From an uncultured archaeon (GTDB lineage Archaea > Asgardarchaeota > Thorarchaeia > Thorarchaeales > Thorarchaeaceae), in assembly GCA_964458565.1 (NCBI GenBank), contig CAYWJO010000010.1, positions 1 through 64,000 of the forward strand: 64,000 nucleotides of DNA, read 5' to 3'. Under the pieces are notes generated by a model that was not told the DNA's origin, did no database searches, and saw only the letters and a list, made by a program, of their open reading frames with translations. Positions 47,976 through 49,466 of this stretch are shown here, one piece after another; positions within the stretch are counted from its first letter, which is position 1, and every line of letters starts with the position of its first letter. Position numbers and translations under genes: made by a program.

Positions 47976-48414
47976 CAGCCACTCCCTCCTTTACCTCGAG
48001 ACCTCGATCATTATTTCCAATAACTCCCTCATTAATCAGTAAATCCAAAAAGTGCCGTGCGCGCTCAATATCAATTCCAGCATCGGCACATTCGACAAGT
48101 ACTATTTCATAGGCAATTGGACGTCCTCGATTTATTTCCGAAAGACTTTGCACGATATCTATGACCCTTCTTCTTACGCCACGAGCGCGAGACTTTTGGG
48201 GGGATTTCTCAAACTCGCTTTGATTCACCAGGTCACGAATATACTCCCGGGCCTCCACTGAAGTCACAGCATAAATCATACCAGGTCCGTGGATTACAAG
48301 AGCTCCACACAGTTCGCAAGATGATGTTTCACTTTCTCGTTCTACGCGAGAATGACCAATATTCCCACAAACACTGCATGTATAGACACGATACATACCC
48401 CGAGTGCCACTCAC
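47968..48414 (-). CDS. zinc ribbon plus C-terminal winged-helix protein
   Basis: CSVC..CELC; C-terminus (AGID.ERARHFLDLL.NEG.I) resembles the MCM/RPA32-type C-terminal wHTH. Confidence 0.62.
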   Translation of the reverse strand: MSGTRGMYRVYTCSVCGNIGHSRVERESETSSCELCGALVIHGPGMIYAVTSVEAREYIRDLVNQSEFEKSPQKSRARGVRRRVIDIVQSLSEINRGRPIAYEIVLVECADAGIDIERARHFLDLLINEGVIGNNDRGLEVKEGVADG

Positions 48415-49466
48415 GCTGTTACCTCCGCTTCAACAACTTCTTCTTCATCATCTGGGCGTTGAAGGTCAGTGCTGAGACCTATACTCTCGAGATACTCAAT
48501 AACATCCGGTTCGATTTTCTTCCGTTCTTTTTCATCATTGTAAAAACCACCCCATCCAATACTCAAACCCACTTCGAAGTCAGGTAGCCCAGCATGATCC
48601 TTTAGCCGATATCTTCTCTTGTTACCCTTTCCAGGGGCTGCTTGAAACCTATAGTCACTTGCATGAGAAACAACATGCCCTCCCACAGGTGCATTAGGCT
48701 GAGCAAAGAGACCAGGTTTTGAGATTGCTTGATTTGTATACAGGAAGATAACATCTGTTGCAGTACCGACCCGCCTCATTAAGTTCATCAGGGCATTGAT
48801 CTTTTGTTGACGGATTCCAAGATTGTATAGCCCAATGTATTCAGCTCTGAAGAATCCAGTTAACGAATCTACTACTACTACCTTAACATTGTCCTCAACA
48901 CAAATCTTGGGAATCCTTTCAAAAAGCTGAGTGAGATGATTTGTTGTAACAGGTGAAGCAATCCTGATATTAGCCATTTGAACATCAACATCCATTCCCC
49001 ATCTCTTGATATTTGCACGAAGCGTTCTTGGTTTGAGTGACTTTTCACTGTCTAACCATAATACACGTCCTTCAAGTCCCCCCTCTTCGAGGGGTAACAG
49101 TGCTCGAACTGCAAGATAAGCGCACATCTGTGTCTTTCCACCAGCAGCCTTCCCGTAAAACTCGATTAACGAACCAGGTTCAAAACCACCTTGAAGTGAT
49201 TGATCAAAAGCATCAATCCCGGTCTTCAATCGTGATTTGGAGTCGATCTCCTTCTCAATATCAATTGCGGACCTGAAATCAAACATCCCAAGCATTTCAC
49301 GAGCGGCACGAATTATCTTCTTGCAAGTTCCTTCACCAATTTTAGTTCGTTCCTGAAGGTCATCTGCGTTCTGAACTGAAAGTAGTTCAGCAGTAGTAAC
49401 AAATGCAGCCTGCAGTTGTTTTGCCACAGTTGGACCAATACCTGGAACCTCAGTTAATTCTGTCAC
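48411..49466 (-). CDS. RadA/Rad51-family recombinase (divergent full-length paralog)
   Basis: HhH N-domain (LTEVPGIGP), FRSA polymerisation motif, GKAAGGKT, LDSE, VVVDS, FRAEYIG..L..RQQK (L1), TNQ...PVGGHVVSHAS (L2). Confidence 0.88.
   Translation of the reverse strand: MTELTEVPGIGPTVAKQLQAAFVTTAELLSVQNADDLQERTKIGEGTCKKIIRAAREMLGMFDFRSAIDIEKEIDSKSRLKTGIDAFDQSLQGGFEPGSLIEFYGKAAGGKTQMCAYLAVRALLPLEEGGLEGRVLWLDSEKSLKPRTLRANIKRWGMDVDVQMANIRIASPVTTNHLTQLFERIPKICVEDNVKVVVVDSLTGFFRAEYIGLYNLGIRQQKINALMNLMRRVGTATDVIFLYTNQAISKPGLFAQPNAPVGGHVVSHASDYRFQAAPGKGNKRRYRLKDHAGLPDFEVGLSIGWGGFYNDEKERKKIEPDVIEYLESIGLSTDLQRPDDEEEVVEAEVTA

What the first reader, a model, noticed from the sequence alone, without database searches (positions are those of the whole stretch)
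48411..49466. Divergent but apparently functional second RadA/Rad51-type recombinase (possible Dmc1-like specialisation)
Seen: every filament-forming element is present: HhH N-domain, FxxA polymerisation motif (FRSA), Walker A GKAAGGKT, catalytic Glu (LDSE), Walker B, L1 FRAEYIG..RQQK and L2 PVGGHVVSH. It departs from the usual RadA consensus (GEFGSGKT, YIDTEGTFRPER) and has an acidic C-terminal tail. Established: non-recombinase archaeal paralogs (RadB, aRadC) lack the N-domain and FxxA. Inference: a specialised strand-exchange protein for this operon, analogous to the Rad51/Dmc1 division of labour. Analogy only; orthology is not claimed.
Basis: partly seen in the sequence, partly recalled or inferred. 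Interest (0 to 1): 0.78.

Follow-up and report, generated by a model that had tools for sequence, protein, structure and literature searches.

The report
Second RadA recombinase of Thorarchaeia
This Asgard (Thorarchaeia) genome carries, besides its ordinary RadA, a second full-length RadA-type recombinase that keeps the ATPase and most filament and DNA-binding residues but has rewired DNA-contact loops and a new C-terminal module. It always sits in one conserved helicase, nuclease and membrane-protein operon, so it looks like a dedicated recombinase, but its activity is untested.

Summary
ORF 48411-49466 (-) encodes a 351-aa RadA/Rad51-fold protein with an HhH N-domain, F64-x-x-A67, Walker A/B, a catalytic Glu, L1 and L2. 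A canonical RadA lies on another contig, and the two are 35% identical.

The protein belongs to a distinct clade, here called RadA2.
- **Size and range:** about 145 clusters at 90% identity. With a RadA2 profile over 400 Asgard genomes it was found only in Thorarchaeia, in about 57 of 87 species genomes.
- **Selection:** dN/dS is 0.02-0.11, yet it evolves about 3-4 times faster than canonical RadA.
- **Conserved residues:** all catalytic and most DNA-binding residues are 99-100% conserved.
- **Clade-specific changes:**
  - The L1 Arg (human R235) is Leu/Ile.
  - The L2 Pro-Asp pair never keeps Asp. It is Pro-Gly here, as in Dmc1, and Ile-Ser in most members.
  - The Walker A Phe is Ala.
  - A W-G-G-[FLM]-Y motif plus a helix and a charged tail are added at the C-terminus.
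- **Context:** RadA2 always sits in the order RadA2, Zn-ribbon/wHTH, 204-aa protein, XPD, 2-TM protein, VirB4-like, Hel308.

Overall it is not closer to Dmc1, and strand exchange is inferred, not shown. A sister set of Thorarchaeia paralogs has lost the catalytic and loop residues.

This scan had already flagged the same family on other genomes. Published work reports RadA duplications in other Asgard groups but not this clade.

The parts
48411..49466 (-). RadA2 gene (351 aa), a divergent full-length RadA/Rad51-family paralog
   Evidence: ORF. Pfam Rad51 2e-49 plus HHH_5. NCBIfam RadA models score below their equivalog cut-offs. AF2 model has pLDDT 93.5. Foldseek TM 0.84/0.93 to RAD51 filament chains.
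49296..49463 (-). N-terminal helix-hairpin-helix DNA-binding domain (residues 2-57)
   Evidence: Pfam HHH_5 4.2e-9 over residues 2-57. GxGP and AKKL are conserved in the clade.
49266..49277 (-). Polymerisation motif F64-R-S-A67
   Evidence: Aligns with SsoRadA FKTA and PfRad51 FMRA. In the clade, Phe is 98% and Gly/Ala 100%.
49131..49154 (-). Walker A, G105-KAAG-G110-K111-T112
   Evidence: Fits GxxxxGKT. G105, G110 and K111 are 99-100% conserved. The canonical Phe (GEFGSGKT) is replaced by Ala in 93% of the clade.
49044..49046 (-). Catalytic Glu141 (LDSE)
   Evidence: Aligned to the IDTE Glu of RadA. It is 100% conserved in core RadA2 and 70% in the degenerate sister set.
48867..48881 (-). Walker B, V196-VVV-D200
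   Evidence: D200 is invariant in all groups.
48804..48851 (-). L1 DNA-binding loop, F206-RAEYIGLYNLGIRQ-Q221, with Leu213 at the position of human RAD51 Arg235
   Evidence: Alignment to human RAD51. R207, R219 and Q220 are 100% conserved. Position 213 is Leu/Ile in 99% of RadA2 against Arg in 92% of canonical RadA.
48675..48734 (-). L2 DNA-binding loop, N245-QAISKPGLFAQPNAPVGG-H264, with Pro251-Gly252 at human V273-D274
   Evidence: The best human match is the RAD51 V273P/D274G mutant 7c9a (152.9 bits against 147.9 for wild type).
48483..48554 (-). Clade-specific C-terminal module: W305-G-G-F-Y309 plus helix 312-328
   Evidence: W305, G306 and G307 are 96-99% conserved in RadA2 and absent from canonical RadA. 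The helix is predicted with pLDDT about 98.
48414..48464 (-). Acidic, disordered C-terminal tail (residues 335-351)
   Evidence: pLDDT is 50-57. Tails in the clade are acidic or Lys-rich and of variable length.
47968..48414 (-). Translationally coupled downstream gene, a 148-aa Zn-ribbon plus wHTH protein
   Evidence: Its start overlaps the RadA2 stop by 4 nt (GTGA). It sits directly after RadA2 in 37 of 38 related loci. Atlas look-alikes are DUF1922/DUF5817-type archaeal proteins.
49466..49996 (-). Upstream coupled gene of unknown family (176-aa ORF; about 150 aa in relatives)
   Evidence: Its stop overlaps the RadA2 start by 1 nt. It is conserved upstream of RadA2 in most loci. It has no Pfam family.
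47361..47975 (-). 204-aa operon protein of unknown family
   Evidence: It sits between the Zn-ribbon protein and XPD in 34 loci at 40-62% identity. No Pfam or atlas hit.
45408..47357 (-). XPD/Rad3-family helicase of the operon
   Evidence: Pfam DEAD_2, Helicase_C_2 and HBB; TIGR00604 rad3 6e-50. Found downstream of RadA2 in all 35 loci long enough.
42221..44554 (-). 777-aa membrane-anchored protein, called VirB4/HerA-like in earlier notes
   Evidence: No Pfam hit. Position conserved. The VirB4-like assignment comes from earlier notes e1-5543631 and e1-5543620 and was not re-tested here.
40014..42224 (-). Hel308/Ski2-type helicase of the operon
   Evidence: Pfam DEAD plus Helicase_C. Position conserved at 47-56% identity.
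35996..36712 (-). Core-only Rad51-fold paralog (238 aa) near the operon's end
   Evidence: Pfam Rad51 3.4e-9 and no N-domain.
35004..35993 (-). XPG/FEN1-like nuclease, the last gene of the operon
   Evidence: Pfam XPG_I 2e-20 and XPG_N.

Best explanation
RadA2 is a functional second recombinase of Thorarchaeia. It is most likely an ATP-dependent protein that polymerises head-to-tail, with Phe64 docking into the neighbouring core, on single-stranded DNA and pairs it with a homologous duplex. It serves a conserved accessory operon rather than general repair.

Shown:
- It has the full RadA architecture and fold.
- ATP-binding, catalytic, polymerisation and most DNA-contact residues are invariant across the clade.
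- It is under strong purifying selection.
- It has an invariant place in the operon RadA2, Zn-ribbon/wHTH, 204-aa protein, XPD, 2-TM protein, VirB4-like, Hel308, and further on a P-loop protein, a Rad51-core protein and a FEN1-like nuclease.

Inferred:
- The operon helicases and nuclease generate or deliver the ssDNA that RadA2 coats.
- The clade-specific loop changes alter how the filament grips triplets and tolerates mismatches, in the direction seen in Dmc1. These changes are L1 Arg to Leu/Ile and loss of the L2 Asp, which together abolish the inter-protomer L1-L2 salt bridge.
- The W-G-G-[FLM]-Y motif, helix and charged tail are a docking or autoregulatory module for operon partners.
For: - **Paralogy.** The canonical RadA is on contig C57 (459.8 bits against 224), and the two proteins are 35% identical.
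- **Fold.** The AF2 model has pLDDT 93.5. It superposes on active RAD51 filament and D-loop protomers (9i62_E, 7ejc_A; TM 0.84/0.93, rmsd 1.8 A).
- **Residues.** K111, D200, E141, R207, R219, Q220, G262-G263-H264, H268 and D290 are 99-100% conserved in 145 clusters. Phe64 is 98% conserved.
- **Selection.** dN/dS is 0.02-0.11 for unsaturated pairs.
- **Distinct clade.** It is separated from all other RadA by a 99 SH-aLRT branch.
- **Taxonomic range.** Among 400 Asgard genomes searched with the RadA2 profile, only Thorarchaeia gave hits of at least 364 bits that cover the C-terminal module. Other Asgard genomes scored at most 317 bits, and their matches end near model positions 309-321.
- **Operon.** Gene order is conserved in all 35 of 38 named Thorarchaeota loci that are long enough. 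Both gene junctions overlap.
- **Loop changes.** Leu/Ile in 99% against Arg in 92% at the human R235 position. No Asp in 142 members at the human D274 position, and Pro-Gly in this protein. The best human hit is the V273P/D274G RAD51 mutant. The functional meaning of these positions comes from Ferlez et al., bioRxiv 10.1101/2025.02.19.639135.
Against: - No biochemical or expression data exist, so activity rests on sequence alone.
- The protein misses the curated RadA equivalog cut-offs (248.5 against 259, and 224 against 361).
- The Arg at the human R235 position, which contacts DNA in RAD51 filaments, is missing.
- The closest sister paralogs in Thorarchaeia have lost the catalytic Glu (70% retained), R207, R219/Q220 and GGH. 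Members of the wider clade can therefore do without strand-exchange residues.
- RadA2 evolves 3-4 times faster than canonical RadA (46-73% against 82-88% identity over the same genomes).
- It is absent from about a third of Thorarchaeia species, including two single-contig genomes. It is therefore dispensable.
Confidence: 0.55

Rival explanations
1. RadA2 is a recombination mediator or accessory factor, like eukaryotic RAD51 paralogs or archaeal RadA paralogs. On this reading it nucleates, caps or remodels filaments of the canonical RadA, possibly as mixed filaments through its FxxA motif, and does not catalyse strand exchange itself.
For: - The degenerate sister set in the same clade loses the catalytic Glu and the L1/L2 residues while keeping Walker A/B, the pattern typical of mediator paralogs.
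- It evolves faster than canonical RadA.
- Every genome with RadA2 that is complete enough also has a canonical RadA.
- The operon already holds two more RecA-fold proteins.
Against: - Core RadA2 keeps L1 R207/Y210/R219/Q220 and L2 NQ...PVGGH at 88-100%. Mediator paralogs generally do not keep these.
- It keeps the HhH N-domain and its own polymerisation Phe.
- Its predicted protomer conformation matches active RAD51 filament chains.
Confidence: 0.25
2. RadA2 and its operon belong to a mobile or defence-type element, and the recombinase serves that element's replication, integration or anti-invader function rather than a cellular recombination pathway.
For: - Distribution is patchy: about 57 of 87 Thorarchaeia species, absent from closed genomes G009 and G058.
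- Genus g11 carries three separate RadA2 lineages, and some genomes have several copies (G054, G042).
- The window has a different upstream neighbour from other genomes, which have a GH3-family gene there.
Against: - No relatives were found in IMG/VR viral contigs.
- Plasmid hits are only haloarchaeal radA at 31-33% identity.
- The window has no tRNA gene, and none of the ten flanking genes scanned (28.4-35.0 kb and 54.2-60.6 kb) is an integrase.
- The flanking genes are metabolic.
- Six of eight multi-member genera are monophyletic in the RadA2 tree, which fits mainly vertical descent with losses.
- Two genomes whose RadA2 proteins are both about 51% identical to the window's share the same upstream neighbours (Rce1-like gene, an unnamed gene, GH3).
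Confidence: 0.1
3. RadA2 is simply a redundant, drifting duplicate of RadA with no specialised role, and its place in the operon is incidental.
For: RadA duplications are common in Asgard genomes, with 2-5 full-length copies in many (Matsuo et al. 2025, PMC12722695).
Against: - dN/dS is 0.02-0.11.
- The clade has fixed signatures of its own: Leu/Ile213, loss of the L2 Asp and the WGG module at 96-99%.
- The operon position is invariant in 35 of 35 informative loci.
- Other Asgard duplicates are 52-67% identical to canonical RadA, whereas RadA2 is 35% identical.
Confidence: 0.05

Closest known systems
Archaeal RadA (for example Saccharolobus solfataricus RadA, PDB 2bke; Pyrococcus furiosus Rad51, PDB 1pzn)
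   Same: The architecture is the same (HhH N-domain, linker with FxxA, RecA core), and all ATPase motifs, the L1 FRAEY...RQQ and the L2 NQ...PVGGH are kept. These are the best sequence matches among solved structures (192 bits, full length).
   Different: Identity is only about 35-40%, below the curated RadA cut-offs. The Walker A Phe is Ala, the L1 Arg (GRG) is Leu, and the L2 Pro-Asp is Pro-Gly. The ATP cap D-S-P is D-H-A here and D-N-A in the clade. About 45 extra C-terminal residues carry the WGG motif, a helix and an acidic tail.
Eukaryotic Dmc1 (for example PDB 7c98, 7ej6)
   Same: It is a second recombinase beside a general one. This protein carries the Dmc1-type Pro-Gly pair in L2 and lacks the L1-L2 Arg-Asp salt bridge that Rad51 and most RadA keep.
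   Different: There is no specific overall similarity: TIGR02238 scores 176 bits against a cut-off of 447.7, about the same as the Rad51 model at 172. Dmc1 keeps the L1 Arg, and RadA2 does not. Only 11% of RadA2 members have Pro-Gly, and most have Ile-Ser. The clade is confined to Thorarchaeia. Published trees place all sampled Asgard RadA outside the Rad51/Dmc1 clade (PMC12722695).
The second RadA clade of Heimdall-, Gerd-, Njord- and (weakly) Lokiarchaeia (Matsuo et al. 2025, Genome Biol Evol, PMC12722695)
   Same: It is also an Asgard-internal duplication of full-length RadA.
   Different: The non-Thorarchaeia Asgard duplicates fetched here are 52-67% identical to canonical RadA and cluster with it. 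None scores like RadA2 or has its C-terminal module. The paper's main text never mentions Thorarchaeia, and the authors removed 'highly divergent' sequences. Whether their figure contains any RadA2 could not be checked.
RadB / aRadC and eukaryotic RAD51 paralogs (RAD51B/C/D, XRCC2/3)
   Same: They share the RecA-fold core. The degenerate sister set of RadA2 resembles them in losing catalytic and loop residues.
   Different: RadB and aRadC lack the N-domain and FxxA. Core RadA2 has both and keeps L1/L2. The RadB model scores 63 bits against a cut-off of 172.

Membership tests
RadA/Rad51/Dmc1 recombinases (full-length strand-exchange proteins) | N-terminal helix-hairpin-helix domain joined to a RecA-fold core | tested here: met
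   Pfam HHH_5 (residues 2-57) plus Rad51 (residues 79-307). AF2 and Foldseek give TM 0.84/0.93 to RAD51 filament chains.
RadA/Rad51/Dmc1 recombinases (full-length strand-exchange proteins) | Linker polymerisation motif (F-x-x-A/G) | tested here: met
   F64-R-S-A67 aligns to FKTA/FMRA of solved RadA. Phe is 98% conserved in the clade. Actual self-association is not shown.
RadA/Rad51/Dmc1 recombinases (full-length strand-exchange proteins) | Walker A, Walker B, catalytic Glu, and the ATP-sensing His/Asp of the cap | tested here: met
   G105..G110-K111-T112, D200, E141, H264 and D290 are all present and 99-100% conserved.
RadA/Rad51/Dmc1 recombinases (full-length strand-exchange proteins) | Canonical L1 and L2 DNA-binding loops | tested here: inconclusive
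   R207, Y210, R219, Q220 and NQ...PVGGH are present. The residue equivalent to human R235 is Leu, and the Pro-Asp pair is Pro-Gly.
RadA/Rad51/Dmc1 recombinases (full-length strand-exchange proteins) | ATP-dependent homologous pairing and strand exchange | not testable with these tools
   Needs biochemistry.
Archaeal RadA orthologs (NCBIfam equivalogs NF003301, TIGR02236) | Score above the curated equivalog cut-off | tested here: not met
   248.5 against 259, and 224.1 against 361.15. The genome's other RadA scores 459.8.
Dmc1 (TIGR02238) | Score above the curated cut-off, or membership of the eukaryotic Dmc1 clade | tested here: not met
   176.3 bits against a cut-off of 447.7. No eukaryotic sequences could be placed in the trees here. 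The published analysis places eukaryotic Rad51/Dmc1 apart from all sampled Asgard RadA (PMC12722695).
Dmc1 (TIGR02238) | Dmc1-type L2 pair (Pro followed by Gly or another small residue) with loss of the L1-L2 salt bridge | tested here: met
   P251-G252 is present. Only 15 of 142 clade members share Pro-Gly. The criterion comes from Ferlez et al..
RadB / aRadC short paralogs | RecA core only, with no N-terminal domain and no polymerisation motif | tested here: not met
   Both are present. TIGR02237 scores 62.9 against a cut-off of 172.4.

The most novel reading that the evidence does not exclude
RadA2 is the dedicated strand-exchange engine of an undescribed Thorarchaeia machine that takes up or exchanges DNA at the membrane (VirB4-like and 2-TM proteins) and processes it with XPD, Hel308 and a FEN1-like nuclease. 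Its rewired L1/L2 (no Arg-Asp bridge; Pro-Gly or Ile-Ser) makes it tolerant of mismatches, so that diverged incoming DNA can be recombined. That would be a prokaryotic, convergent counterpart of the Rad51/Dmc1 split in relatives of the eukaryotic ancestor.
Probability: 0.15. Interest if true: 0.85.

Novelty: new variant of a known kind. Interest (0 to 1): 0.55.

Why it matters
Two full-length recombinases with different DNA-contact loops in one cell is the arrangement that underlies mitotic versus meiotic recombination in eukaryotes. Finding an independent case in Asgard archaea gives a tractable natural experiment on how loop changes retune a recombinase. The changes here sit at the positions that distinguish Rad51 from Dmc1 (human R235, V273, D274).

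The case is also tied to a defined gene set of two helicases, a flap nuclease and membrane proteins. That set points to a candidate DNA-exchange or specialised repair pathway in Asgard archaea.

It does not change the published conclusion that Rad51 and Dmc1 duplicated after the eukaryotic line split from known Asgard archaea.

Tried and rejected
- **Homodimer prediction.** Complex prediction with two copies and alignment A3 gave a score of 0.01, so 'no answer'. It counts neither for nor against self-association.
- **Eukaryotic sequences for the trees.** No tool returned Rad51 or Dmc1 as usable ids. Ten representatives with Rad51-like N-terminal offsets all proved to be archaeal RadA. The relation to Rad51/Dmc1 therefore rests on HMM scores, PDB alignments and the literature.
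- **First genome scan.** The search for related loci with the 32-sequence alignment A1 failed because it had no sufficiently conserved stretch. It was repeated with the Thorarchaeia-only alignment A2.
- **'The paralog occurs across Asgard archaea'.** Rejected for this clade. RadA2-type hits are confined to Thorarchaeia families f1 and f2. One non-Thorarchaeia Asgard genome (G201) does have another divergent RadA paralog next to a FEN1-like nuclease and a P-loop protein. Whether it shares an origin with RadA2 is unresolved.
- **'A recent duplicate of the Thorarchaeia RadA'.** The free tree separates RadA2 from all other RadA. Forcing RadA2 together with the core Asgard RadA is not rejected (delta lnL 21.8, p-AU 0.18), so the origin stays open.
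- **Viral or plasmid origin.** No viral relatives were found, and the plasmid hits are only haloarchaeal radA.
- **Neighbouring proteins.** Atlas look-ups of the 148-aa and 204-aa neighbours gave only DUF1922/DUF5817-like leads or nothing.
- **Model coordinates.** These were not available in the script box, so where the C-terminal helix packs could not be examined.
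Full report
**1. What is there**

The minus-strand ORF 48411-49466 encodes 351 residues from a GTG start.
- Relatives start at the same M-T-E-L residues.
- A GGAGG sequence lies about 10 nt upstream. The start overlaps the stop of the upstream gene by one base (TAGTG), and the stop overlaps the start of the downstream gene by four bases (GTGA). The gene therefore looks translationally coupled on both sides.
- Pfam finds Rad51 (2e-49, residues 79-307) and HHH_5 (4e-9, residues 2-57).
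- The NCBIfam RadA equivalogs match end to end but below their curated cut-offs: NF003301 248.5 against 259, and TIGR02236 224 against 361. The Dmc1 and Rad51 models score 176 and 172, and RadB scores 63.

- F64-R-S-A67 lies on the polymerisation motif.
- G105-KAAG-G-K-T112 is the Walker A.
- E141 is the catalytic Glu.
- D200 is the Walker B Asp.
- F206-RAEY...R219-Q220 is L1.
- N245-Q...P-V-G-G-H264 is L2.

**2. It is a second RadA**

The assembly has 93 contigs and is 93% complete. It holds a canonical RadA on contig C57 (349 aa; TIGR02236 459.8 bits) and three core-only Rad51-fold paralogs, one of them inside this operon at 35996-36712. The two full-length proteins are 35% identical.

**3. 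Structure**

An AlphaFold2 model built on a 119-sequence alignment has mean pLDDT 93.5 and pTM 0.91.
- Beyond the RadA fold it predicts a confident extra helix at residues 312-328.
- The tail from about residue 335 is predicted disordered.
- Foldseek's best matches are protomers of active RAD51 filaments and D-loop complexes (9i62_E, 7ejc_A; TM 0.84/0.93, rmsd about 1.8 A over 314-317 columns).

**4. A distinct clade**

Similarity searches:
- The word-based search gave about 107 clusters at 47-91% identity, then a sharp drop to canonical RadA at no more than 39%.
- The exhaustive representative search added a more divergent set that is still closer to RadA2 than to RadA (P0123-P0134 and P0186).

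Trees:
- In a FastTree of 124 rows and an IQ-TREE (LG+C20 PMSF) tree of 82 rows, RadA2 and this set form one group. A 99 SH-aLRT branch separates the group from all other RadA, whether Asgard, Euryarchaeota, DPANN or TACK.
- The origin is not resolved. Forcing RadA2 together with the core Asgard RadA costs 21.8 lnL units and is not rejected (p-AU 0.18).
- Eukaryotic sequences could not be included.

**5. Distribution**

- Named genome hits are almost all Candidatus Thorarchaeota.
- With a RadA2 profile over 400 Asgard species genomes, every hit of at least 364 bits is in the two Thorarchaeia families. Matches elsewhere score at most 317 bits and end near model positions 309-321, so they lack the C-terminal module.
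- About 57 of the 87 Thorarchaeia genomes carry a RadA2-type gene. Nine genomes that are at least 90% complete, and the single-contig genomes G009 and G058, lack it.
- Other Asgard genomes often have 2-5 full-length RadA genes. Those fetched are 52-67% identical to canonical RadA and cluster with it.
- The exception is a 42%-identical copy in genome G201. It is followed by a FEN1-like nuclease and a small P-loop protein.

**6. Constraint**

- Across the same genomes, canonical RadA is 82-88% identical to the window genome's copy, while RadA2 is 46-73% identical.
- Nei-Gojobori dN/dS for unsaturated RadA2 pairs is nevertheless 0.02-0.11. For G065/G062, dS is 0.35 and dN is 0.011.

Residue conservation was tallied over 145 core RadA2 clusters, 30 clusters of the divergent set and about 150 canonical sequences.
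- Core RadA2 keeps K111, D200, E141, R207, R219, Q220, G262, G263, H264, H268 and D290 at 99-100%. It keeps Y210 at 88% (plus 10% Phe) and the polymerisation Phe at 98%.
- The divergent set keeps Walker A/B but loses the catalytic Glu (70% retained), R207 (30%), R219 (27%), Q220 (20%) and GGH. Its members also lie in other gene contexts.

**7. What is different**

Clade-fixed changes:
- The residue aligned with human RAD51 R235 in L1 is Leu/Ile in 99% of RadA2, against Arg in 92% of canonical RadA. In this protein it is Leu213.
- The Walker A Phe (GEFGSGKT) is Ala in 93%.
- The ATP-cap D-S-P is D-N-A (D-H-A in this protein).
- W305-G-G-[FLM]-Y309 is 96-99% conserved and absent from canonical RadA.

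At the L2 pair aligned with human V273-D274, counted without gaps:

| Group | Commonest pairs |
|---|---|
| Canonical RadA | Pro-Asp 62%, Pro-Gly 14%, Pro-Ala 8% |
| RadA2 | Ile-Ser 60%, Pro-Gly 11% (this protein's subclade), Ile-Thr 10% |

RadA2 never has Asp at this position (0 of 142).

- These canonical proportions are close to those in Ferlez et al..
- In keeping with the Pro-Gly pair, the best human match in the PDB is the RAD51 V273P/D274G mutant 7c9a, at 152.9 bits against 147.9 for wild type.
- According to Ferlez et al., the L1 Arg and the L2 Asp form an inter-protomer salt bridge that is kept in Rad51 and most RadA and lost in Dmc1. RadA2 has lost both partners.
- This is the one concrete sense in which the 'Dmc1-like' label fits. 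By overall similarity it does not fit.

**8. Context**

In 38 related Thorarchaeota loci the order is RadA2, Zn-ribbon/wHTH protein, 204-aa protein, XPD, 2-TM protein, 777-aa membrane protein, Hel308, 559-aa protein.
- The order is kept wherever the contig is long enough. XPD is present in 35 of 35 such loci.
- RadA2, XPD and Hel308 are the best-conserved members, at about 46-63% identity.
- In the window the operon runs on to a P-loop protein, a 321-aa protein, a core-only Rad51 paralog and an XPG/FEN1-like nuclease.

There are no clear signs of a mobile element:
- The flanks are metabolic genes, and the window has no tRNA gene. Ten flanking genes (28.4-35.0 kb and 54.2-60.6 kb) were scanned against Pfam and none is an integrase.
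- IMG/VR holds no relatives.
- In a RadA2 tree labelled with GTDB genera, six of eight multi-member genera are monophyletic. Genus g11 splits into three lineages, and some genomes have extra copies. This points to mainly vertical descent with losses, plus some duplication or transfer.

**9. Reading**

The most economical reading is a functional, filament-forming recombinase dedicated to this accessory operon, with retuned DNA-contact loops and a new C-terminal module (confidence 0.55).
- The main rival is a mediator-type role beside canonical RadA (0.25). The degenerate sister paralogs keep this rival alive.
- A role in a mobile or defence element (0.1) and plain redundancy (0.05) are less likely.
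- A homodimer prediction gave no verdict and is not used as evidence.

**10. Known or new**

- Matsuo et al. 2025 (PMC12722695) report two RadA clades in Heimdall-, Gerd-, Njord- and weakly Lokiarchaeia, and show that Rad51/Dmc1 fall outside all sampled Asgard RadA.
- Their genome set includes Thorarchaeota SMTZ-45 and AB_25. I find RadA2 in AB_25 (L025) and in a protein that NCBI labels as from SMTZ-45 (P0067).
- However, their text never mentions Thorarchaeia, and 'highly divergent' sequences were removed.
- Full-text searches found no description of this clade or its operon.
- Several first-stage notes of this scan flagged the same family in other genomes.
- I therefore class it as a new variant of a known kind.

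Noticed in passing
L161 (G201:C5:1-18000), RadA-like gene at about 2422-3402: A non-Thorarchaeia Asgard genome (family code f15) has a divergent full-length RadA paralog, 42% identical to canonical RadA and near-identical to P0136 (they join at 100 SH-aLRT on near-zero branches). It is followed on the same strand by small unknown proteins, a 480-aa protein, an XPG/FEN1-like nuclease and a small P-loop ATPase. This looks like a compact echo of the tail of the Thorarchaeia operon.
   Followed up: partly
L016, L017, L020, L021 (upstream of RadA2-type genes): A GH3-family (acyl-acid amido synthetase-like) gene lies within about 2-4 kb upstream of the operon head in four divergent loci, in either orientation, once with a ThiF-like gene. 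The window instead has the propeller-Rab fusion gene there.
   Followed up: no
P0123-P0134, P0186; loci L019, L021; genomes G011, G020, G037, G042, G077, G079: A degenerate sister set of RadA2-like proteins in Thorarchaeia keeps Walker A/B and the WGG motif but loses the catalytic Glu and the L1/L2 residues. Its members sit outside the full operon, for example next to a 1591-aa protein, and some genomes carry both forms.
   Followed up: partly
L058 / L022 / P0006 (Thorarchaeota MAG_9 and CSMAG_2438, genus code g16): In this subclade the C-terminal tail of RadA2 is long and Lys-rich (KKxKK repeats) instead of acidic, so the tail's charge is not conserved although its presence is.
   Followed up: no
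window 37625-38341 (-) and 35996-36712 (-): The operon contains two further small RecA/P-loop-fold proteins, one AAA_25-like and one Rad51-core-only. Counting RadA2, one transcription unit holds three RecA-superfamily proteins.
   Followed up: partly
window 50874-53225 (-): The gene just upstream of the operon encodes an FG-GAP/BBS-like beta-propeller fused to a Rab/Ras-like GTPase (Pfam Ras 4e-47). It is not next to the operon in other genomes.
   Followed up: no
Plasmid collection hits H1-H8: Several haloarchaeal megaplasmids (Halorussus, Haladaptatus, Natronococcus) carry annotated radA copies. This is an unrelated instance of extra full-length RadA genes on secondary replicons.
   Followed up: no
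G054 (three RadA2 copies on C20, C144, C188) and G042 (five RadA-like matches): Some genus-g11 genomes hold several RadA2-type copies. This may reflect operon duplication, strain mixtures in the MAG (contamination 3%) or lateral transfer.
   Followed up: no
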